Counted from the first letter of the stretch, positions 2,762-52,792 are shown. The stretch is DNA of 64,000 nt from an uncultured bacterium (GCA_903937035.1 CAIZXS010000012.1:18314-82313), one strand, 5' to 3'. Notes: a model not told the origin generated them from the letters alone. Numbers and translations: made by a program.

Positions 2762-5755
2762 ATGCAGGAAGAATTGATTATTCGCGGAGCGCGCGAACAC
2801 AATCTGAAAAATATTAACCTCAATTTACCAAGAGGTAAATTTGTTGTGTTTACTGGAATATCTGGTTCAGGGAAAAGTACGCTGGCTTTTGATACGATTT
2901 TTGCCGAGGGACAAAGACGCTATTTGGAAAGTCTTTCTAGCTATGCGCGGCAGTTTTTGGGTCAAATGGGAAAACCGGAAGTGGATTCGATTGAGGGCCT
3001 CAGTCCTGCGATTTCGATTGACCAAAAAGCCGCTTCACACAATCCGCGCTCAACTGTGGGCACAGTGACGGAAATTCATGACTATTTGCGCTTGCTTTAT
3101 GCGAAAATTGGCACCGCGCATTGTCCGATTTGCAACCGGGAAATCGTGAAACTTTCCACAGATGAGATTGTGGACAGAATTTTGAATATTTGTACGGAGG
3201 AGGGCAAGAAATCGGCCAAGGATAATTGTGCAATTGAAATTTTTTCTCCAATTGTGCGAGAGCGCAAAGGTGAATATTCCACGCTTTTGGAGGAGATGTT
3301 TCGGCGTGGTTTTTCCACTGCGTTTGTGAATGGAAAAAAGCATGTCCTGGATGAAAAGATTGGGACGCGGGTAAAATTGGAACGCTACAAAAAACATAAT
3401 ATTGACATTTTGGTCGACAAAGTGGAAATAAATTCAGAGAATATTTCACGGATTTTTGAAGGCGTCGAGCAGGCACTGAAACTTTCCAAGGGTATTGTCA
3501 GAATAAAATTTCAAAATCCTAATTTCCAATTTCAAACCAAATCCAAAGTTCAAAATTCTAATGACAAAAAAGATAAAGAAATAAAAAAAGTTAAGGATGG
3601 AGAAAAAGATAAAATCAGCGAGATGATTTTTAATCAGAATTTTTCTTGCCCGGTGCATGAGGTGGATTTTCCCGAGCTCGAGCCGCGTTTGTTTTCTTTC
3701 AATAGCCCGTTTGGGGCTTGTCCATCTTGCGAAGGCTTGGGCGTGAAAAAGGAAATTGATCCCGATTTGGTTGTACCGGATATGAATAAAACCATCGCCG
3801 AAGGTGGAATCATGCCATGGAGTTACAAAAAAAATAACTGGCAGGGGACGATTTTGCGGGCTGTTACTAACTTCTATCACATCCGCGACAACGTGCGTTT
3901 GCGTGATTTATCGGAAGATGATTTTAATACTTTGCTCTATGGTGGACCTGACGCTGAGGATATGATTTCCGAAGACGCGGCCGATGAAATCCCCGTGACT
4001 CTGCGCAGCAAAACCGGATCAAGTTGGAAGTATAATATGCGTTGGCGGGGAGTGGTTGGTTATCTGCAGGAGCGTTATCTCAAAACGGATTCGGAAGGCG
4101 TGCGCACTGACATTGAAAAATACATGTCGCAAAATCCTTGTTCGACTTGTCTCGGGTCACGCTATAAAAAAGAAGTCTTGCTTGTGACCGTGGGAAATAA
4201 AAATATCCAAGAAGTTTCCATGATCAGCGTGCGGGAGACTTTAGATTTTTTTCAGAAAATAAAGTTTAGTAAACGCGAAGAACTGATTGCGAGCAGAATT
4301 CTCAAGGAAATTCAAAATCGCTTGGGTTTTTTACAAGATGTTGGTCTCGGGTATCTCTCGCTTGGTCGCGCGGCGAACACCCTGGCCGGTGGAGAGTCGC
4401 AACGCATTCGATTGGCTTCGCAAATCGGCTCACAGCTCGTTGGCGTGCTCTATATCCTCGATGAGCCATCGATTGGTCTTCATGCTCGTGACAACGCCAA
4501 GTTGCTCGCTACGCTCTTGCAATTACGCGATGTGGGAAATACTTTGATTGTGGTGGAGCACGACGAAGAAACAATGCGCGCGGCGGATTATCTAGTGGAC
4601 ATTGGACCGGGAGCGGGAAAACATGGCGGAGAAATTGTAGCGGAAGGCTCACCCGAAGAAGTGTTGAAAAGTGAAAAATCCTTGACGGCTAAATATTTAC
4701 GCGGTGATTTGCAGATCGAAATTCCTAATTTTCGGCGACCTTTGAAAAACAAAAAAACACTCGTAGTGCGGGGAGCACGCGAGCATAATTTGCAAAATAT
4801 CACTGTGTCATTTCCATTGAAAGTTTTGACTTGTGTGACGGGCGTGTCTGGGTCAGGAAAATCTACGCTTGTGGAAGATATTCTCTATAAAGCCCTGTCG
4901 GCCAAAATTATGCGTTCCTTGGAGCGACCAGGTAAACATAGTGAAATTGTCGGCGATCATTATCTCAACAAAGTGATTATGATTGATCAGTCGCCGATTG
5001 GTCGCACGCCCAGATCGAATCCGGCGACCTACACGGGTCTGTTTACTGCCATTCGCGAACTATTCGCCGAAACGCGCGACGCCAAAGCGAAAGGTTATTT
5101 GCCGGGAAGATTTTCCTTTAATGTTAAAGGTGGACGTTGCGATAATTGTCAGGGTGATGGGTATAACAAAATTGAAATGCAGTTTATGCCGGATGTCTAT
5201 CTTCCCTGTGATGTTTGTGCTGGAAAAAGATATAATAGCGAAACGCTCAAAGTGAAGTATCGTGATAAAAATATTGCCGATGTACTAGCCCTGACCATTT
5301 CCGAAGCCCGCGAATTTTTTGCTAATTTTCACGACATCGCGGACAAACTGAAAGTTCTCGAAGATGTCGGCTTGGGCTACATTCAACTCGGCCAATCCGC
5401 CACGACACTTTCCGGGGGAGAGGCCCAACGCATCAAGCTTTCCACCGAACTTTCTAGGCGAGCGACAGGGGATACACTCTACATTTTAGACGAACCGACA
5501 ACTGGCTTGCATTTTGATGACATTAAAAAACTACTAGGCATTCTCAATCGCTTGGTTGATGCAGGAAATACGGTTATTGTTATTGAACATAATTTAGACG
5601 TAATCAAAACCGCCGATTGGATTATTGATCTGGGACCGGAAGGTGGTAAAGAAGGTGGAAAGGTAATTGTCAGTGGTACGCCGGAAGAGGTGGCGAAGTG
5701 GCATAAGGAGAGTTGGACGGGGAAATATTTGAAGGAAGTTTTGAATAAAAAATAA
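2762..5755 (+). CDS. uvrA: Excinuclease ABC subunit A (UvrA), full-length two-ABC-module form with a low-complexity insertion
   Basis: '[53 protein letters not shown]' with two Walker A motifs ([18 protein letters not shown]). Zn-finger Cys pairs and ABC signatures [16 protein letters not shown]. Lys/Asn/Gln-rich insert around residues 255-285. Confidence 0.95.
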   Translation: MQEELIIRGAREHNLKNINLNLPRGKFVVFTGISGSGKSTLAFDTIFAEGQRRYLESLSSYARQFLGQMGKPEVDSIEGLSPAISIDQKAASHNPRSTVGTVTEIHDYLRLLYAKIGTAHCPICNREIVKLSTDEIVDRILNICTEEGKKSAKDNCAIEIFSPIVRERKGEYSTLLEEMFRRGFSTAFVNGKKHVLDEKIGTRVKLERYKKHNIDILVDKVEINSENISRIFEGVEQALKLSKGIVRIKFQNPNFQFQTKSKVQNSNDKKDKEIKKVKDGEKDKISEMIFNQNFSCPVHEVDFPELEPRLFSFNSPFGACPSCEGLGVKKEIDPDLVVPDMNKTIAEGGIMPWSYKKNNWQGTILRAVTNFYHIRDNVRLRDLSEDDFNTLLYGGPDAEDMISEDAADEIPVTLRSKTGSSWKYNMRWRGVVGYLQERYLKTDSEGVRTDIEKYMSQNPCSTCLGSRYKKEVLLVTVGNKNIQEVSMISVRETLDFFQKIKFSKREELIASRILKEIQNRLGFLQDVGLGYLSLGRAANTLAGGESQRIRLASQIGSQLVGVLYILDEPSIGLHARDNAKLLATLLQLRDVGNTLIVVEHDEETMRAADYLVDIGPGAGKHGGEIVAEGSPEEVLKSEKSLTAKYLRGDLQIEIPNFRRPLKNKKTLVVRGAREHNLQNITVSFPLKVLTCVTGVSGSGKSTLVEDILYKALSAKIMRSLERPGKHSEIVGDHYLNKVIMIDQSPIGRTPRSNPATYTGLFTAIRELFAETRDAKAKGYLPGRFSFNVKGGRCDNCQGDGYNKIEMQFMPDVYLPCDVCAGKRYNSETLKVKYRDKNIADVLALTISEAREFFANFHDIADKLKVLEDVGLGYIQLGQSATTLSGGEAQRIKLSTELSRRATGDTLYILDEPTTGLHFDDIKKLLGILNRLVDAGNTVIVIEHNLDVIKTADWIIDLGPEGGKEGGKVIVSGTPEEVAKWHKESWTGKYLKEVLNKK

Positions 5756-5765
5756 CACAATAAAG

Positions 5766-5955
5766 TGTCATCCCTGCGACCGCGTGCCGCCTTAGCTTTA
5801 GCGGTGGAGCAAGGCGGGGATCCAGGCACCTCGGGTCATAAGAAAAGAAAAACGAGATTTACTGGTTAAAAAATAAAAGTTAGAAGATTTATAATTCGAT
5901 TTTCCAGGGCTTAAAACTAGTGGAACCTAGATTCCCGCCTCCGCGGGAATGACAG
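5766..5955. repeat. MITE-like palindromic element (~190 bp) with terminal inverted repeats TGTCATCCCTGCG / CGCGGGAATGACA
   Basis: Ends are near reverse complements. Internal mini-palindrome attcccgcctccgcgggaat (5932-5950) is the reverse complement of the copy at 48722-48741. GC-rich relative to surroundings. Confidence 0.6.
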
Positions 5956-6041
5956 AGATGAGGGTTTTCAGGGAAAAAATAAAAGGCAGAAGTTTCATGA
6001 CAATGTCATAAAATTTCTGCCTTCACAAGGGACTTTTTGAC

Positions 6042-6260
6042 TTAACATCGATGGCCATAAAACAAAAATGACCATAGTGACAGTATTATCCATGGCAGGT
6101 TAATTATAATAAATATGAACAGAGCAATCTTCCTTGTCTTGTTGCTATATTCACTATCATTAAACTGTTCGGCTAAAATTCCTACGTAGAGTCCATAGGG
6201 AAATCCAATTATCCATAGAAAGAAATAAGTTAGGACAAAAGTATTCAATAACGTGTTCAT
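6042..6260 (-). CDS. Small two-TM membrane protein (72 aa), hypothetical
   Basis: Strong SD on minus strand (gaaaggaggtaaaaaaacgcATG). Hydrophobic throughout. Confidence 0.5.
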   Translation of the reverse strand: MNTLLNTFVLTYFFLWIIGFPYGLYVGILAEQFNDSEYSNKTRKIALFIFIIINLPWIILSLWSFLFYGHRC

Positions 6261-6362
6261 GCGTTTTTTTACCTCCTTTCGTGGCTATATTTTTTCGTTT
6301 TTTCTAGCTTTTCTCATGTTGTTGTCAAAGAGGATATTGTAATGTAGCTTGTATCTATACAA

Positions 6363-7721: not shown

Positions 7722-10700
7722 TTGCGGATGAGAAAAATAAAAAAAACAAGAAAAATAGCTCTTAGGTTGAGAAGAATATTTTTCAAAATCAGGCAATTTA
7801 AGCTCAGACTTTTTTGGGTTGTTTTTTCGGCGGGCGCGAAGAGTTTGCCAGGGCGTTTTTGTGCGGGAATGAAAAAAATTCCCGGGACGATGGCAAATTT
7901 ACCAAGAAATATAAGAAATTTAAAATGGGTAAATATTAAGACTTTTTCTCGCAGAAATTATCCCTTGCTCTTGGCGATTGTGTTTTTGACCCCGGCTTTT
8001 ATTTTACTTTTCCTTTTTGTTAATTCTCGCATTCACAAGCAAACGACTCAAGCGGCGCCGTTTACAGGCGCAGTGAGAGTTTCCAAAGAGAACACCACTC
8101 TTTCGACCGCGGGAGGATGGCTCAAATCAATGGCTTTCTCCGGAGATGGAATCAATGGGGATGGTGATTATTTTCAGCCCATCCATCCTGGAGCCAGAGC
8201 GACCACTGAAGGCGCAGCAGGAACGTTGGCCGTGGGAGAGGTGGTGATGCCAACGATCACAGCTAATGCTTATGATGCGGCTGGGGCGGTGTTTATTCCT
8301 TGGAAGCCAAATACTAATGGAAATTTTTATGGCGTGACCTTGGCAGTGGCGAATCTCAATACTACTGCGGCTAACTTAAATGTAGTGGTGGAACTTTTGC
8401 GTTTTCCAACAGCATCCTATACTGGCACCCCTCCGACTGTTGTCTGGTCTAACTACGTTGCTTGCTCGGCAGTGAATACTTGTGTTTATGCCGCCGATAC
8501 AGTGATTGAAAGAACACAAGTGATGCGTTTTGATCAAAGCATATCCGGCGAAGCGGCCTATCCGGGGCAATACGGAATCCACTATATGGACTTTCGTTTT
8601 GATCCTTTAGCGGTCACGACAACTACGCATTATGGTTTTCGAGTTTATTATAACTCTTTAACGACAGCATCTACTTGGCCCAGGAACGGAGCGTCAAAAC
8701 CAACAGTAAATGCTGCGAATTTTGGTTTAGGAATTACTGATGTGGACACAGCCAACGCCTTGACAGTAACAGTTCCTTTGGCCAATACGACCCAATCGAG
8801 CTATGCAGTGGCAATCAATTCTGCCCCGGCTGTCGGTCAAGCCGCGGCTGCGCGTACTCAAAATGAGCATTGGAGTGGCACTTATTCTGACTCAAGTGGT
8901 AACTGGACGATTGCCGGTTCTGTTTCCGGGGTGCAAACAGCAAAATTGACTTCATCTACCGATGGAGGAACTGGGGTGGCGTGGGTTAATGATGGCGTGA
9001 CAAAGACAACATTGTCAGCTGACGCGACTGCCACTACAAAACTTTGCGTCAGTTCCATTGCTGGTTTTGCAGTCAATCAATATATTGACATCTGGGATGC
9101 GGACACAACTTCAATTCAAAGAATTATTGCTTCCGTGAGTTCTGCTGATGTCGGCTGTTCCAATGGTCCGTCAATTAATGTTACTGCAACTTTGGCAGCG
9201 ACCGATAAATTTACCCTTTCCAAAAATGCGACTGTGGCGCGAGCAATATGGAAATTGAGAATTATCCAAGGAGCGGAAGAAGCCTTCACGGAAAATATGC
9301 CGACAACGACAAAACTTTGCGTGGCCGATGCTTCACGCTTTTCTGTCGAGGCAACTGCCGGATCAAGCAATATTAACATTTGGGACGATAACTCGATCAT
9401 CGCCGCCAGAAGAATCACCACAATTTCATTTGCCGATGCTTCTTGCGCGAGTTTGAATAGTATCACGATTGACACCGCTATTACGGCCGGAACATATACA
9501 ATTGATAAAAACGCCAGAGTGGCGGAAATATCCGCTAATTTTTCTAACAATGGAACCCCGACTGATGGAAATATTTTTCGCTTCACGACTCTTAATATGG
9601 GACAAAATCCCGCCAAAATTGGAAATGGAAACAGTTTTGTTTTGCTGTATGGAAAAACCGCTGCTCCGGCCACTAGTGCGGTTAATTATCCCTGGATTGC
9701 TAACCAGCGGCATGCTTTTTTTGTGGCCTATGGTGATGCGGATACGACGGCGCCAGCTGATGGTGATATGGCGATTATCGGCGGTGGTGCGGCTGATCCT
9801 GACTCAGGTGATTCAGTCAATCTTTCCAATGATTTGGTTTTGGGAAATATTTCTCCACATACGGTTATGGTGGATAAAAATTTCGACATGCCAATGGCCT
9901 ATACAGGAGCGACCGGGGGAGGCGTGGGAAGTGGATTGACTACGCCAGCCACCGCTTCCTATGGTGGATCCGGTTTTGTTTCGATGCTAATCTCGACCAG
10001 GGCCAAGCTGGCTGTTTCCGATGCTATCAATCAGCGCTATCGACTTACTGCACCAGGAAGGATATTGCTATCTTCCGGTGCGTCTTTAGAATTGGGTTCG
10101 TCCGTCGATCCTTTGCTAAAAACAACAACAGTAGACTTATATCAGGATTCTGTCGGTCCATTAGTATCAACTGTGTTAACTTCTGACTCAACAACCAACA
10201 CCTATATTGACATGGCTTCCACTGCCGGGTTCTATATTGGAGATGTAGTAATGATTAAAGATAACAACAGTGTTCCGACAACAAGAATCATTGCGGCAGT
10301 CACTTCTTCCACTCGATTGACTTTCACGGCGGCGATGGTGGCCGGATACACCGTTGCTCAAGGTGCGACGGTTTCTCGCGGACCAAACACTGATGTGCCA
10401 ACCGGAGCAGACAGAAGAAGTTTCATCTATAGTGCCAGGGCTCAAGCAGCTCGAGTGAATATGTACTCTCAAGGGGCAGATGATTATCGGACGCCGCGGG
10501 CTGACTTAGCAGTGGATATCGATGGGAACATTGATACGGGCTATCTTGGAGCGCAACAAACGGCAGCCGGGAATGTTTGGATGGACGCCGCGGGGAGTTT
10601 GGCAGGCGATTGGTCGGCACTTGATCCACTTTCCGTCGCGCAAGGAAATTCCTATGCGGTCAATGATAATGATTCATCAATCGGCATGGGAGCCAATGAT

Positions 10701-45807: not shown

Positions 45808-45838
45808 GGCCCCATCGTCTATCGGTTAGGACATCAGG
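45808..45838 (+). pseudogene. 5' half of a tRNA-Glu copy (acceptor + D-arm + 5' anticodon stem), truncated
   Basis: ggccccatcgtctatcggttaggacatcagg is identical to the first 31 nt of the complete tRNA-Glu at 45864. Followed by tttttttaccccacaccaattttaat. Confidence 0.7.
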
Positions 45839-45863
45839 TTTTTTTACCCCACACCAATTTTAA

Positions 45864-45935
45864 TGGCCCCATCGTCTATCGGTTAGGACATCAGGTTTTC
45901 ATCCTGAAAAGAGGGGTCCGACTCCCCTTGGGGCT
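45864..45935 (+). tRNA. tRNA-Glu (TTC), complete; T-loop TCCGACT (C at position 54)
   Basis: Acceptor GGCCCCA/TGGGGCT, D-arm GTCT ATCGGTTA GGAC, anticodon stem TCAGG/CCTGA with loop TTTTCAT, T-arm AGGGG TCCGACT CCCCT. Confidence 0.8.
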
Positions 45936-45961
45936 ACAGGCCCAAAATTGGTGTGGGGCAA

Positions 45962-45996
45962 GTCCTGAAAAGAGGGGTTCGACTCCCCTTGGGGCT
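45962..45996 (+). pseudogene. 3' half of a tRNA-Glu copy (3' anticodon stem, variable loop, canonical T-arm TTCGACT, acceptor 3' strand)
   Basis: tcctgaaaagaggggttcgactccccttggggcta matches the tRNA-Glu 3' half except T-loop TTCGA vs TCCGA. Preceded by caggcccaaaattggtgtggggcaag, the inverse of the upstream CCCCACACCAA motif. Confidence 0.7.
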
Positions 45997-46000
45997 ACAT

Positions 46001-46606
46001 ATGGAACAGCTTGGTCAAAACATCTTTCAATTTTTGCATCAGTATGGCTATTGGTTGATGGTACCACTGATGATTATTGAGGGTCCGGTGGTAACAGTAA
46101 TTGCCGCGATGCTGGCATCCCTTGGCGCTTTTAATGTTTTTTTAGTTTTACTTTTTTCAATTCTCGGAGACATTATTGGAGATATCGCGCTCTATGGTTT
46201 GGGCTATCGATTTGGCATGGGGTTTGTCCGGCATGTTGGGAAGTATATGGGCATCACGGAGAAACTGGTATTGCGGATGCAGAAATATTTCAAAAAGCAT
46301 GGAGGAAAAACAATTTTTGCCGTTAAATCGACAACGGGACTTTGTTGGGCTACTTTCACGGCCGCCGGAATCGTCAAAATGGATTTCAAAAAATTTCTGA
46401 AAAATTCTTTCTATGGTGGTATTGTTTGGAGTGGATTTTTGGTTGCAATGGGTTATTTTTATGGCTACCTTTGGCGCGAAATAAAACAATACATCCAGTG
46501 GATTGGCTGGGCAATTTTTGCTGTGGCAGCTGCCTCTATCGTCGTAGTTACGCTTTATAAGAATCTCCAGGCAAAGAAGCTTCTACGGGAAGGACATGAA
46601 AAATAA
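46001..46606 (+). CDS. DedA/TVP38 family membrane protein
   Basis: 'YGYWLMVPLMIIEGPVVTVIAAML...' with multiple TM segments. The ORF-track start at 45953 overlaps the tRNA fragment; MEQLGQ (46001) is preferred. Confidence 0.7.
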   Translation: MEQLGQNIFQFLHQYGYWLMVPLMIIEGPVVTVIAAMLASLGAFNVFLVLLFSILGDIIGDIALYGLGYRFGMGFVRHVGKYMGITEKLVLRMQKYFKKHGGKTIFAVKSTTGLCWATFTAAGIVKMDFKKFLKNSFYGGIVWSGFLVAMGYFYGYLWREIKQYIQWIGWAIFAVAAASIVVVTLYKNLQAKKLLREGHEK

Positions 46607-49438: not shown

Positions 49439-51532
49439 TCACTCTAAATGTACATCCTTCGCGAATTTTTCCAAGGCTTTTGCGATAAGTGGGTGTTTTT
49501 TTAGTTTTGAGTCTGTCTTGAAAATATTCTGGGCTTCCGCGCGAGCGAGTTTAATTAATTTTAAATTGTTGAGATTTTCCATAGCAATATCAGAAAATCC
49601 CGATTGGGATTTTCCGAGCAGTTGTCCCGGGCCGCGCAGTTTCAAATCAATTTCGGAAAGTTCAAATCCGTCATTGCTTTTTTCCATTGCGCGCATGCGT
49701 TCTAGCGCGGTTTTGGTAGCTGAGTCAGTGAAAAGAAAGCAATATGACTGGTGCTCTCCACGACCGACGCGGCCACGGAATTGGTGGAGTTGGGAAAGAC
49801 CAAAGCGGTCGGAATTTTCGATGAGCATGATTGTGGCATTGGGGATGTCGATGCCAACTTCGACGACCGAAGTGGAAACCAGAATTTGACTTTTTTTATC
49901 CTTGAAATCTTGCATTACTGTTTCTTTTTCTTTAGATTTGAGTCGGCCATGCAGTAGTCCCAAGTGATATTCAGGAAAAATTTCAGAAAGTTTTTTGTGC
50001 TCTTCGGTGACTGCTTTGACTTCTGTGAGCACTTTGGATTCTTCGACTAGTGGCAAAATAACGAAGACTTGGCGGCCGGCATCAATTTCTTTGCGCATAA
50101 AAGCATAAATCTGATCTCTTTGCGCAGGGAGGACAATTCTGGTGATGATTGGTTTTCTATTTTTAGGCATCTCGTCCAAAATGGATAAATCGAGACTGCC
50201 AAAAAAAGCAATTGCCAAGGTGCGCGGAATTGGCGTCGCGGTCATAGTGAGGAGGTGGGGGATGGTTTTCTTTTTTCCATCTTTGAGTTGCATGGTTTCT
50301 TTTTGCAACTCGGATCTTTGGGCGACGCCAAAGCGATGCTGCTCGTCAATAATTACTAGCGCAAGATTTTTGAAATTAACATCTTTTTGGATAATGGCGT
50401 GTGTACCGATGACTAGGTTTATTTCTCCATTTTCAATTTGCCCTAGCATTTGATCGCGCGTAATCTTTTGCGCCTTTGGTTCCCAACTTTGAAAAATTAA
50501 TTTATAGGAACTGGTGAGTAGCGCAATTTTGAAATCATATGCGGAAAATAGTTTGCAAAAACTTTCAAAGTGTTGGAGTGCGAGCACTTCAGTGGGAGCA
50601 AGGATGGCGACTTGATGTTTTTGGGAAAGCACACTAAGCGTGGAAATAGCTGCTACAACTGTCTTTCCTGCGCCCACATCGCCGTTCAAAAGGCGATTCA
50701 TCGGACTCGTTTTTTCTAGGTCTCTTAGGATTTCAAAAGAAGATTTATGTTGAGCTCCAGTTAGTTTGAAGGGAAGATTTTCAATGAATTTATTGATCAG
50801 TTTCTCGTCAAGCAAAAGATTGGTCGCGCTTTGCGCTTCCCAGGTATTTTTCACTCGCAGTGTTTTTATCTGCATCAAAAACATTTCGCGAAAAGCAAAA
50901 GTTTTTTGGGCGATAAGGAGCTTTTCTTGATTTTCTGGAAAATGGATCTGCCCGAGTGCAGAAATTAAAGAGTAGAGATGAAATTTTTTGCGAAGTTCTT
51001 CTGGCACAAAATCTTCCAACTGAGTGATATTTGCAAAAAACGTTTTCATCTGCCAACGGATCCACTTGGAGGTGAGACCAGGAGTTTCGCTGTAGATTGG
51101 CACAAGTTGTCCTGTGTTAGTTTTTTCGCGCGAGGCCCTTTCCCAAGCAGGATTGGAAAGTGTGAAATATTTTCCCATGCGACTGAGTTTTCCTGATAGA
51201 CGAACTTCGCTGCCAATCGGCAGAGATTCGAGCATGAAAGGTTGGTTGAACCAAACCGCTTTCAGGGGGGTTTGATTTTCATCTTCTAGATAAACTTCCG
51301 CAATGGTCATTTTGCGACGAAAAATACGATTTAGCTTTGTTTTCATGACGACAGCTGAGACAGTGACTACTGAATTTAGATGTTCATCGGAAAGCGCGAC
51401 CGTTTGGGAAAAGTCGTCATAACGAAAGGGTAGGTAGAACAAAAAATCTTGCACGGTAAAAAGCCCCAGCTTCTCCAGGATTTTAATATACTTCGGAGTG
51501 ATTTTGGGAATATTTTTGAGAAGAGTGTTCAT
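49439..51532 (-). CDS. recG: ATP-dependent DNA helicase RecG
   Basis: Wedge/N-terminal 'MNTLLKNIPKITPKYIKILEKLGLFTVQDFLFYLPFRYDD', Walker A 'LLNGDVGAGKTVVA', DEQH 'VIIDEQHRFG', 'QFRGRVGRGE'. Start set at 51532 (MNTLL) so it does not run through the tRNA. Confidence 0.9.
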   Translation of the reverse strand: MNTLLKNIPKITPKYIKILEKLGLFTVQDFLFYLPFRYDDFSQTVALSDEHLNSVVTVSAVVMKTKLNRIFRRKMTIAEVYLEDENQTPLKAVWFNQPFMLESLPIGSEVRLSGKLSRMGKYFTLSNPAWERASREKTNTGQLVPIYSETPGLTSKWIRWQMKTFFANITQLEDFVPEELRKKFHLYSLISALGQIHFPENQEKLLIAQKTFAFREMFLMQIKTLRVKNTWEAQSATNLLLDEKLINKFIENLPFKLTGAQHKSSFEILRDLEKTSPMNRLLNGDVGAGKTVVAAISTLSVLSQKHQVAILAPTEVLALQHFESFCKLFSAYDFKIALLTSSYKLIFQSWEPKAQKITRDQMLGQIENGEINLVIGTHAIIQKDVNFKNLALVIIDEQHRFGVAQRSELQKETMQLKDGKKKTIPHLLTMTATPIPRTLAIAFFGSLDLSILDEMPKNRKPIITRIVLPAQRDQIYAFMRKEIDAGRQVFVILPLVEESKVLTEVKAVTEEHKKLSEIFPEYHLGLLHGRLKSKEKETVMQDFKDKKSQILVSTSVVEVGIDIPNATIMLIENSDRFGLSQLHQFRGRVGRGEHQSYCFLFTDSATKTALERMRAMEKSNDGFELSEIDLKLRGPGQLLGKSQSGFSDIAMENLNNLKLIKLARAEAQNIFKTDSKLKKHPLIAKALEKFAKDVHLE

Positions 51533-51536
51533 TTGT

Positions 51537-51551
51537 GCGCTTAGCAGGAAT
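51537..51551. repeat. 15-nt partial duplicate of the tRNA-Arg 3' acceptor/T-arm region (gcgcttagcaggaat), separated from the tRNA by ttcaccccacaccaaattgtatgg
   Basis: Matches cttagcaggaat of the adjacent tRNA at 51588-51599 (as read on + strand). Confidence 0.55.
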
Positions 51552-51583
51552 TTCACCCCACACCAAATTGTATGGGATATTTG

Positions 51584-51656
51584 TGTCCTTAGCAGGAATC
51601 GAACCTGCGACCTTCTGGACCGCAACCAGACGCTCTATCCACTGAGCTATAAGGAC
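51584..51656 (-). tRNA. tRNA-Arg (anticodon GCG as read)
   Basis: Acceptor GTCCTTA/TAAGGAC, D-arm GCTC AGTGGATA GAGC, anticodon stem TCTGG/CCAGA with loop TTGCGGT, T-arm GCAGG TTCGATT CCTGC. Confidence 0.75.
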
Positions 51657-52524: not shown

Positions 52525-52616
<92 letters not shown>

Positions 52617-52792
52617 AACGAAGTGAATAAGGAGAGGAGCAAGCCAACTGCTTGGCTTGCGTGAGGGATTTGAAAGACGGAGCGCGGCGGCGCGTTGAAA
52701 AGTAATAATATTACTTTTCAAGGGTCGAGCAAATTTTTAGCAAAAAATTATGCGTGACCAAATCTTCATTTTGTTCTCAATCTTAGTATACT

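What the first reader, a model, noticed from the sequence alone, without database searches (positions are those of the whole stretch)
51537..51656. Same CCCCACACCAA motif plus 3'-end duplication recurs downstream of tRNA-Arg(GCG)
The sequence immediately 3' of the minus-strand tRNA-Arg reads (tRNA sense) ...acaaatatcccatacaatttggtgtggggtgaa, followed by attcctgctaagcgc. This is a 13/15 copy of the tRNA's own 3' acceptor/T-arm.

This mirrors the tRNA-Glu locus, which has aaaattggtgtgggg followed by a 3'-half duplicate.

Two independent tRNAs showing the same arrangement points to a common mechanism. A tRNA 3' end followed by a short conserved motif and a partial direct repeat is reminiscent of attL/attR generated by tyrosine-integrase elements, but with almost no cargo. 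These may be excision scars or a miniature tRNA-targeting element.

The RecG ORF as given in the track runs through the tRNA and should start at 51532.
Basis: seen in the sequence. Interest (0 to 1): 0.6.

Follow-up and report, generated by a model that had tools for sequence, protein, structure and literature searches.

The report
Hairpin cassette that replaces tRNA genes
The repeat beside tRNA-Arg is the leftover right end of a tiny hairpin-bounded DNA cassette that brought in a foreign copy of the same tRNA and split the resident gene. The same cassette type sits intact in the nearby tRNA-Glu gene and in 16 kinds of tRNA genes in environmental microbes, and its arms also flank a small GIY-YIG nuclease gene.

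Summary
GGTGTGGGG occurs exactly three times in the window, each time beside tRNA-Arg(GCG) or tRNA-Glu(UUC). The Arg copy is followed by a 12-nt exact (19/21 extended) copy of the tRNA 3' end.

It is not an integrase att scar. Relatives (Candidatus Moraniibacteriota MAGs) show the full structure: native tRNA 5' part | CCCCACACCAA arm | complete, differently compensated tRNA-Arg | TTGGTGTGGGG arm | native 3' part, inserted in the T-loop. Other relatives have the empty site, or a scar-free replacement. The window's Arg locus has lost the left half. Its Glu locus is intact, with the insertion in the anticodon loop.

A metagenome scan found at least 120 arm pairs. Twenty-four distinct ones carry a tRNA, and each lies co-oriented inside a loop of a tRNA gene fragment; the outer anticodon, readable in 9, always matches the cargo. 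None of the other 100 has a tRNA remnant. Longer copies carry an 84-90 aa GIY-YIG nuclease gene with 4-nt target duplications. This resembles the Ssn/NTS hairpin-nuclease systems described in 2025.

Best reading: a hairpin-bounded, promoterless tRNA cassette that replaces resident tRNA genes. The enzyme and insertion chemistry are inferred, not shown.

The parts
51583..51656 (-). Complete tRNA-Arg(GCG), acceptor GTCCTTA/TAAGGAC: the imported cargo tRNA, now the working gene at this locus
   Evidence: ARAGORN; Rfam 73 bits. Identical in L008, L009, L044 and distant L031, while sister lineages carry GCGC-type
51568..51582 (-). Spacer between cargo tRNA and right arm (AAATATCCCATACAA); contains CCCATAC, a degenerate left-arm-like copy
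   Evidence: Same spacer in L009, shorter in L044. Local hairpin not significant as ssDNA (z -0.6)
51556..51567 (-). Right hairpin arm TTTGGTGTGGGG (tRNA sense)
   Evidence: Pairs with CCCCACACCAAAT left arm in L009/L044
51552..51555 (-). Four-nucleotide outer flank TGAA of the right arm
   Evidence: Same TGAA in L009, L044, L031. GTGAA is the commonest right flank of tRNA-bearing copies
51536..51551 (-). Remnant 3' end (ATTCCTGCTAAGCGCA) of the original GCGC-type tRNA-Arg, from T-loop position 58 to the discriminator
   Evidence: Equals the 3' end of the uninterrupted native gene in L010-L014
49439..51532 (-). recG coding sequence, true start ATG at 51532, 3 nt after the remnant
   Evidence: Translation; identical 697-aa gene called on public contigs, Pfam RecG_wedge/DEAD/Helicase_C
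45808..45842 (+). 5' half of the interrupted (outer) tRNA-Glu, positions 1-35
   Evidence: Direct repeat D2, 100%; alignment to inner tRNA 35/35
45847..45861 (+). Left hairpin arm CCCCACACCAATTTT (preceded by junction T-TTA, 45843-45846)
   Evidence: Inverted repeat I1
45865..45937 (+). Complete inner tRNA-Glu(UUC), T-loop TCCGACT: cargo
   Evidence: 55 bits
45944..45958 (+). Right hairpin arm AAAATTGGTGTGGGG, followed by flank CAAG (45959-45962)
45963..45999 (+). 3' half of the interrupted (outer) tRNA-Glu, positions 38-73, T-loop TTCGACT
   Evidence: Direct repeat D1, 97%. Empty orthologous site in L012
46001..46606 (+). DedA/VTT-domain gene whose ATG follows the outer 3' half by 1 nt; context marker for the orthologous empty site
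   Evidence: 201-aa gene with PF09335 on public contigs; same junction in L012 and L044

Best explanation
The segment 51536-51582 is the surviving right end of a hairpin-bounded tRNA cassette. The cassette has three parts: left arm (CCCCACACCAA..), a complete promoterless tRNA gene, and right arm (..TTGGTGTGGGG). It entered the T-loop of the resident tRNA-Arg(GCG) gene and split it.

The imported tRNA is read from the resident gene's promoter and cut out of the transcript by the ordinary tRNA-processing enzymes (inferred). It therefore takes over, and the split resident gene decays. Later deletions removed the left remnant and left arm in this genome. In one relative (L008) they removed everything, leaving a scar-free replacement.

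The neighbouring tRNA-Glu locus is the same thing still intact, inserted in the anticodon loop.

The arms belong to a widespread family of hairpin repeats. That family includes bare hairpin copies and roughly 300-bp copies that carry an 84-90 aa single-domain GIY-YIG nuclease gene, both with 4-nt target duplications. This resembles the Ssn/NTS hairpin plus single-strand-DNA nuclease systems.

I infer that such a nuclease mobilises the family through folded single-stranded DNA. That would explain why insertions in tRNA genes always fall in loops of the cloverleaf.

Shown: the anatomy, presence/absence at orthologous sites, foreign origin of the cargo, loop-only and same-isoacceptor nesting, and the nuclease-gene association. 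Inferred: the enzyme's role, the single-strand route, cargo expression, and how a tRNA came to lie at the hairpin apex.
For: Full structure at the same locus in L009 and L044: outer GCGC-type 5' part, cacg, left arm, GTCC-type complete tRNA, right arm, tgaa, outer 3' part.

Empty sites: L012 (native tRNA followed directly by CAAATG recG), L013, and L008 (cargo-type tRNA, no scars). For Glu, L012 has the same upstream block and DedA start with an uninterrupted tRNA.

The cargo is identical in L031, whose RecG is only 59% identical. There it lies between compensated, different arms (CCCCGTCACTTAT/ATAAGTGACGGGG) inside a decayed tRNA-Arg.

The metagenome scan gave at least 120 stretches and 124 distinct arm pairs. 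Twenty-four carry a tRNA, covering 16 isoacceptors. All are co-oriented between fragments of a tRNA, and the 9 of 9 outer genes with a readable anticodon match the cargo. Breakpoints lie in the D-loop, anticodon loop or T-loop. Among the other 100 interiors, 0 show tRNA remnants, against 24/24 positive controls.

The stem continues inward 3.5 bp with its own partner versus 0.8 bp with shuffled partners.

Exact 4-nt direct repeats flank 29/105 copies (shuffle mean 7, maximum 15). They also flank GIY-YIG-bearing and hairpin-only copies.

The GIY-YIG gene lies between or next to the arms in all 12 close homologues within the scan loci. It also does so in 5 of 5 contexts fetched by protein alone, from four named phyla.

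The published Ssn family has the same hairpin-gene-hairpin layout, cuts only single-stranded DNA beside the hairpin, and accepts split hairpin halves (PMC11893778).

The Glu composite folds as a tRNA inside a tRNA as single-stranded DNA, z = -4.55.
Against: No GIY-YIG gene is present in the window (tblastn), so the local copies may be inert relics.

GIY-YIG enzymes hydrolyse DNA and are not known to join it, so they cannot be a complete transposase on their own (own knowledge).

Most tRNA-bearing copies lack a simple 4-nt target duplication. They read CTTGC..GTGAA, CACG..TGAA or TTCA..CAAG, and 2-4 nt of the native loop are missing.

How a whole tRNA reached the hairpin apex is unexplained.

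The outer Glu halves show no change between the window and L044 while the spacers diverged. Simple decay does not predict this.

Membership of the nuclease in the Ssn clade (cd10448) could not be tested. Its nearest solved relatives are UPF0213 proteins.
Confidence: 0.65

Rival explanations
1. attL/attR footprints of a tyrosine-integrase element that integrated in the tRNA and later lost its cargo.
For: Partial 3' tRNA copies downstream of a complete tRNA are the classic integrase signature. Anticodon loop and T-loop are the known integrase sublocations (own knowledge). The Arg locus alone looks like this.
Against: Intact copies also have a 5' remnant and a complete internal tRNA with its own compensated acceptor stem, not a host-5'/element-3' hybrid. 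The bounds are inverted repeats. D-loop insertions occur. No integrase domain appears among genes called within 10 kb either side of recG, which covers both loci. The arms go with a GIY-YIG gene.
Confidence: 0.03
2. An RNA-level feature: the insertion is an intron (or split-tRNA linker) in the outer tRNA. The arms form the splicing or processing helix, and the outer tRNA is functional after removal of the insert.
For: Insertions lie only in loops. The Glu composite folds as a nested cloverleaf. In three cases the arm helix sits exactly where the anticodon arm should be (L096, L117, L186). The outer Glu halves are unchanged between the window and L044.
Against: Removing the insert does not restore a normal loop, because TTCG, TG or CA are missing. 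Outer genes decay or lose parts (L031, L106, the window Arg locus). There is no bulge-helix-bulge geometry and no Rfam intron hit. The arms also bound a protein gene and bare hairpins with target duplications.
Confidence: 0.05
3. Local, non-mobile rearrangement: a palindrome beside the tRNA provoked replication slippage or template switching that duplicated parts of the resident tRNA.
For: Inner and outer Glu differ at only 1 of 71 positions. Palindromes are known to provoke template switching (own knowledge).
Against: Arg inner and outer differ by two compensated acceptor pairs. The inner type recurs unchanged in a genome with 59% RecG identity. Other nested pairs are only 75-93% identical with compensated stems. 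The same arms occur at at least 120 unrelated sites.
Confidence: 0.07
4. Rescue rather than targeted invasion. A bare hairpin copy landed in a tRNA loop. The hairpin apex then broke and was patched with captured DNA, and only patches that contained a working copy of the lost tRNA survived. The composite itself need not be mobile.
For: Interiors of the 124 arm pairs are almost all unrelated, forming 95 clusters, as expected for captured filler. tRNA cargo is seen only where a tRNA was destroyed: 24/24 against 0/100. Bare hairpins with target duplications exist. The tRNA sits exactly at the A/T-rich apex.
Against: It needs survival of a cell with a broken single-copy tRNA gene until rescue. The same constant outer flanks (CTTGC..GTGAA) occur in many different tRNA species, which suggests one cassette subfamily. 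Identical cargo in distant genomes fits transfer of a ready-made cassette better.
Confidence: 0.15

Closest known systems
Ssn/NTS (SRM) systems: single-domain GIY-YIG single-strand-DNA nucleases and their hairpin repeats (Chenal et al. 2025, PMC11893778)
   Same: A dispersed hairpin repeat flanks a gene of about 85-95 aa consisting only of a GIY-YIG domain, in an IS-like repeat-gene-repeat layout. Split hairpin halves are tolerated in vitro, which matches arms held apart by cargo. A canonical NTS-flanked homologue occurs in a relative (L011) and is 37% identical to the nuclease found here.
   Different: The arm sequence differs (CCCCACACCAA/TTGGTGTGGGG, not ATTCCC..GGGAAT). The gene or cargo lies inside one hairpin rather than between two hairpins. 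Clear 4-nt target duplications are present. tRNA cargo nested in tRNA genes is not mentioned in that paper. Clade membership (cd10448) and enzymatic activity are untested here.
REP/BIME-RAYT and IS200/IS605 with their miniature derivatives (PATEs)
   Same: Hairpin-defined elements that move or act through single-stranded DNA. Many short non-autonomous copies exist, and flanking tetranucleotides matter (own knowledge; also discussed in PMC11893778).
   Different: Those use a Y1 HUH transposase and have a separate hairpin at each end. Here the associated gene is GIY-YIG and the two ends pair with each other.
Integrative elements that target tRNA genes (tyrosine integrases)
   Same: Insertion occurs in the anticodon loop or T-loop. 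The element supplies sequence that keeps a working tRNA, and a partial tRNA copy is left behind.
   Different: Integrases replace only the 3' part and leave direct repeats. Here a whole independent tRNA is supplied, both halves of the old gene remain, the D-loop is also used, and there is no integrase.
Archaeal tRNA introns and split tRNA genes (bulge-helix-bulge)
   Same: tRNA genes are interrupted in the D-loop, anticodon loop and T-loop, with complementary sequences flanking the interruption.
   Different: There is no bulge-helix-bulge motif. The exons do not rejoin to a normal tRNA, the outer gene decays, and the insert itself is a tRNA gene.
Phage T4 SegB, a GIY-YIG homing endonuclease in the tRNA gene cluster (own knowledge, not checked here)
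   Same: A GIY-YIG nuclease linked to preferential inheritance of a set of tRNA genes.
   Different: SegB is a multi-domain double-strand homing enzyme in a phage. It has no hairpin arms and no nesting of tRNA in tRNA.

Membership tests
Ssn/SRM hairpin-nuclease system | Dispersed hairpin-forming repeat of 20-50 nt present in many copies | tested here: met
   At least 120 metagenome stretches. Bare hairpin copies such as CCCCACACCAAAAGTTTTGGTGTGGGG. Only 3 arms in the window itself.
Ssn/SRM hairpin-nuclease system | Repeats flank the gene of a single-domain GIY-YIG protein of about 90 aa | tested here: met
   Met in related loci, not in the window. L185 and L115 have the gene between the arms. 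12/12 close homologues have arms within 120 nt. 5/5 contexts fetched by protein do too. Pfam finds PF01541 only.
Ssn/SRM hairpin-nuclease system | Protein belongs to the cd10448 clade | tested here: inconclusive
   No CDD search is available. It is 37% identical to an NTS-flanked homologue. The nearest solved proteins are UPF0213 BH0048 and EF2693.
Ssn/SRM hairpin-nuclease system | Repeat matches the SRM/NTS consensus (ATTCCC..GGGAAT core) | tested here: not met
   The arms are CCCCACACCAA/TTGGTGTGGGG. NTS-like repeats exist separately in relatives L010, L011 and L021.
Ssn/SRM hairpin-nuclease system | Nuclease binds the hairpin and cuts only single-stranded DNA beside it | not testable with these tools
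   Needs purified protein and oligonucleotides.
Tyrosine-integrase attL/attR at a tRNA gene | Integrase gene in or beside the element | tested here: not met
   The Pfam lists for genes called within 10 kb either side of recG on the same contig (the stretch includes both tRNA loci) show no integrase. The element interior is only the tRNA.
Tyrosine-integrase attL/attR at a tRNA gene | Working tRNA is a hybrid of host 5' part and element 3' part, bounded by direct repeats only | tested here: not met
   The inner tRNA has its own 5' and 3' acceptor strands (GTCC/GGAC) that differ from the outer GCGC/GCGC. A 5' remnant is also present, and the bounds are inverted repeats.
MITE derived from a DDE transposon | Terminal inverted repeats plus fixed-length target duplication | tested here: inconclusive
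   Inverted ends are present. Exact 4-nt duplication occurs in 29/105 copies against 7 expected, but not at the two window loci nor at most tRNA-bearing copies.
MITE derived from a DDE transposon | Longer autonomous copies with the same ends encode a DDE transposase, and interiors are related | tested here: not met
   Longer copies encode GIY-YIG. Interiors fall into 95 clusters among 124 copies.
IS200/IS605-type or REP-RAYT single-strand elements | Y1 HUH transposase associated with the hairpins | not tested
   None was seen next to the arms in the loci examined, but no systematic search was made.
tRNA intron (archaeal BHB or bacterial group I) | Recognisable intron structure, and exons that rejoin to a normal tRNA | tested here: not met
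   Rfam reports only the nine tRNAs in the window. The flanks form no 3-nt bulge / 4-bp helix / 3-nt bulge (read). Joined outer halves lack TTCG, TG or CA.

The most novel reading that the evidence does not exclude
A selfish tRNA-replacement system. Promoterless tRNA cassettes are held in the loop of a hairpin recognised by a small GIY-YIG single-strand-DNA nuclease. They invade the single-stranded loops of the cognate tRNA gene, destroy it, and make the host depend on the imported copy. This drives horizontal turnover of tRNA genes across several uncultivated phyla. The intact outer halves may serve as homology arms for spread by natural transformation.
Probability: 0.35. Interest if true: 0.85.

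Novelty: new variant of a known kind. Interest (0 to 1): 0.75.

Why it matters
Hairpin repeats tied to small GIY-YIG nucleases were described only in 2025, and their biological role outside Neisseria is open. These loci suggest one concrete outcome: whole tRNA genes are carried inside such hairpins and replace the resident gene, with every stage preserved among close relatives (empty site, full insertion, half scar, clean replacement).

That offers a mechanism for horizontal exchange of tRNA genes in tiny genomes that keep one gene per tRNA. It also warns annotators that tRNA fragments and over-long neighbouring ORFs, such as the recG call running through the tRNA, mark these events.

It gives a natural substrate set for testing what this nuclease clade cuts: the arms, their 4-nt flanks, and the tRNA loops.

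Tried and rejected
- **Chance:** rejected by motif counts and repeat length.

- **Assembly artefact:** rejected. The same structures occur in independent assemblies: JGI, ENA and Logan contigs, NCBI MAGs and many metagenomes.

- **Terminator or promoter role:** consensus scans found nothing in or beside the elements.

- **Local hairpin in the Arg remnant (CCCATAC/GTGTGGG):** not more stable than shuffles.

- **Phage vector:** 0 cargo-sized arm pairs and only 2 bare hairpins in 2.9 million viral contigs.

- **Decayed tRNAs hidden in the non-tRNA interiors:** none found by an nhmmer profile, with 24/24 positive controls.

- **T-loop variants (TCCGA) as immunity of cargo tRNAs:** only weak enrichment, 5/21 against 12/154, and they also occur in non-nested genes. 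Not pursued.

- **Empty sites for non-tRNA copies:** none among the fetched loci.

- **Literature searches for nested or interrupted bacterial tRNA genes with palindromes or GIY-YIG:** these found only the Ssn paper, and it does not mention tRNA.

Full report
**1. The observation**

ARAGORN and Rfam place tRNA-Arg(GCG) at 51583-51656 on the minus strand. Read in tRNA sense, the gene is followed by CAAATATCCCATACAATTTGGTGTGGGG, then TGAA, then ATTCCTGCTAAGCGCA, then CAA and the ATG of recG.

ATTCCTGCTAAG is an exact copy of the tRNA's own T-arm/acceptor. With the trailer the repeat is 19 of 21.

The exact 9-mer GGTGTGGGG occurs three times in the 64 kb, once here and twice around tRNA-Glu. About 0.5 would be expected by chance (my arithmetic). 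No other tRNA in the window has a nearby same-strand (direct) partial copy of itself; tRNA-Ser(GCT) has an inverted one.

- 5' half (45808-45842)
- arm CCCCACACCAATTTT (45847-45861)
- complete tRNA-Glu (45865-45937)
- complementary arm AAAATTGGTGTGGGG (45944-45958)
- CAAG
- 3' half (45963-45999)

The recG start at 51532 matches the 697-aa gene called on public contigs that carry the identical protein.

**2. What the Arg locus is**

RecG relatives identify the organism as a Candidatus Moraniibacteriota (Patescibacteria) MAG and give the comparative series.

- **L012** has the native tRNA-Arg, acceptor GCGCTTA/TAAGCGC, followed directly by CAAATG of recG. This is the empty site.
- **L009 (RecG 92%) and L044 (88%)** have the full structure. 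It reads GCGC-type 5' part up to the T-stem, cacg, CCCCACACCAAAT, a spacer, a complete tRNA-Arg with acceptor GTCCTTA/TAAGGAC, a spacer, ATTTGGTGTGGGG, tgaa, ATTCCTGCTAAGCGCA. The TTCG of the outer T-loop is missing.
- **The window** has the native upstream block, which it shares with L008, L010 and L011. This is followed directly by the GTCC-type tRNA, the right arm and the GCGC-type 3' remnant. The left half has therefore been deleted.
- **L008 (93%)** has the GTCC-type tRNA with no arms and no remnant, a completed replacement.

The GTCC-TTA tRNA is identical in the window, L008, L009, L044 and L031. L031's RecG is only 59% identical. Lineages at 76-83% carry the GCGC type.

In L031 the same cargo sits between different but compensated arms (CCCCGTCACTTAT / ATAAGTGACGGGG). 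The cacg and tgaa flanks are the same, and the surrounding tRNA-Arg has a broken anticodon stem. The same contig has a tRNA-Pro(CGG) nested in the same way in an anticodon loop.

The complete tRNA is therefore imported cargo, and the partial copy is what is left of the resident gene.

**3. The Glu locus**

L012 has the orthologous site, with the same upstream block and the same DedA start, and an uninterrupted tRNA-Glu. L044 shares the nested structure.

Relative to the empty site, the insert lies in the anticodon loop and CA (positions 36-37) is missing. As single-stranded DNA the 195-nt composite folds as a cloverleaf within a cloverleaf, z = -4.55.

**4. The family**

This gave 124 distinct arm pairs.

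Twenty-four carry a tRNA, covering 16 isoacceptors. Every one is co-oriented between recognisable fragments of a tRNA. The outer anticodon is readable in nine, and in all nine it equals the cargo's.

Breakpoints (with reading):
- D-loop: 6 cases, TG missing
- Anticodon loop: about 9 cases
- T-loop: 4 cases, TTCG missing
- Whole outer anticodon arm replaced by the arm helix: 3 cases

Inner and outer copies are 75-100% identical, with compensated stem differences.

The other 100 interiors hold no tRNA remnant, against 24/24 positive controls. Across all 124 arm pairs the interiors are almost all unrelated, 95 clusters in all.

The helix continues inward with variable but complementary sequence, 3.5 bp against 0.8 bp for shuffled partners.

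Most copies end C-CCCC...GGGG-G. Of 105 such copies, 29 have an exact 4-nt direct repeat outside, against 7 expected and a shuffle maximum of 15. Bare hairpin copies show the same duplications.

**5. The associated gene**

Copies with 185-284 nt between the arms encode a GIY-YIG protein of about 85 aa. They show target duplications TGGA and CTAC. Pfam finds only PF01541.

All 12 close homologues in the scan loci have arms within 120 nt. The window has no homologue.

To remove the selection bias I searched by protein instead. The clade is 75-89% identical across MAGs named Margulisbacteria, WOR-1, Omnitrophota, Cloacimonetes and a Bathyarchaeia bin.

In 5 of 5 contexts fetched by protein the arms lie beside the gene. 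One copy has compensated arm variants CCCCCGCACCAATTG / CAATTGGTGCGGGGG and duplication TGAA inside a phosphate-transporter operon.

**6. Comparison with what is known**

The 2025 Ssn paper describes single-domain GIY-YIG nucleases of about 94 aa. Their genes are flanked by hairpin repeats. The enzymes bind the hairpin, cut only single-stranded DNA just upstream of it, accept split hairpin halves, and have an IS-like layout. The paper does not mention tRNA.

A canonical NTS-flanked homologue is present in relative L011. It is 37% identical to the nuclease found here. The nearest solved structures are UPF0213 proteins. Clade membership therefore stays open, and the arm sequence is not the published consensus.

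I found no report of tRNA genes nested in tRNA genes in bacteria.

**7. Mechanism, and what is not explained**

Shown:
- the anatomy
- presence/absence at orthologous sites
- foreign origin of the cargo
- strict loop, orientation and identity rules
- the nuclease-gene association

Inferred:
- The nuclease mobilises the hairpins through folded single-stranded DNA.
- The cargo is transcribed from the interrupted gene's promoter. The spacers of 2-25 nt leave no room for a promoter.
- The cargo is released by the normal tRNA-processing enzymes.

Unexplained:
- Most tRNA-bearing copies have constant flanks (CTTGC..GTGAA, CACG..TGAA, TTCA..CAAG) instead of a target duplication.
- It is unknown how a tRNA reached the hairpin apex.
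- The three exact anticodon-arm replacements have no explanation.
- Between the window and L044, the outer Glu halves show no differences while the spacers diverged.
- tRNA cargo is found only in cognate tRNA genes (24/24 against 0/100). This fits selection, because only such insertions are both tolerated and expressed. It also fits homology-guided spread using the outer halves as arms. I cannot separate the two.

**8. Verdict**

The finding is real and it is the visible tip of something larger. It is a new variant of the recently described hairpin plus GIY-YIG kind, with an unreported outcome: replacement of tRNA genes.

Noticed in passing
window 52634-52676: Downstream of tRNA-Ser(GCT) (52525-52614) lies a reverse-complement pseudo-copy of that tRNA's 3' end (GGAGAGGAG ... 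GAGGGATTTGAA). It is split by a different hairpin, CAAGCCAActgcTTGGCTTG. This may be another hairpin-in-tRNA relic.
   Followed up: no
L010 about 4492-4600; L011 about 5927-6000 and 9083-9373: At the same recG-upstream tRNA-Arg locus, NTS/dRS3-like palindromes (ATTCCCTGCCTGCCGGCAGGCAGG..) lie between a complete tRNA-Arg and a second copy of its 3' end. L011 also encodes a 97-aa GIY-YIG flanked by ATTCCCGCGAAGGCGGGAAT hairpins, the canonical Ssn/NTS layout.
   Followed up: partly
L008 about 6060-6330; L011; L022: An insert of about 200 nt sits directly after tRNA-Glu and is followed by a duplicate of the tRNA's last 12-20 nt. This is a third kind of insertion at tRNA 3' ends in this clade.
   Followed up: no
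window 45915-45921 and many loci: Non-canonical T-loops TCCGA or TGCAA (C or G at position 55) occur in 17 of 175 distinct tRNAs. These include the working tRNA-Glu of the window and of L008, L010, L011 and L012. The rate is 5/21 in nested tRNAs and 12/154 in others.
   Followed up: partly
L120 1035-1316; L199 3121-3399: A GIY-YIG gene between the arms is itself interrupted in frame by a hairpin copy, read through as ..FPPPMYWCGDKS...
   Followed up: no
L118 2600-2850: One outer tRNA-Gly(CCC) carries both an NTS-like palindrome and the CCCCACACC cassette. Two hairpin families have therefore hit the same gene.
   Followed up: no
window 51530-51540 and 45999-46003; L008, L012: Protein genes start 2-5 nt after a tRNA 3' end: recG after tRNA-Arg, and DedA after tRNA-Glu. 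This implies co-transcription and nearly leaderless messages after tRNA processing.
   Followed up: no
L001-L051 and window: A tRNA-Arg with anticodon GCG was found in 41 of the recG-related loci; the nine window tRNAs include no ACG version.
   Followed up: no
P0001-P0120: The 84-aa GIY-YIG clade is 75-89% identical across MAGs assigned to very different phyla, including one archaeal bin. This points to recent horizontal spread of the element.
   Followed up: partly
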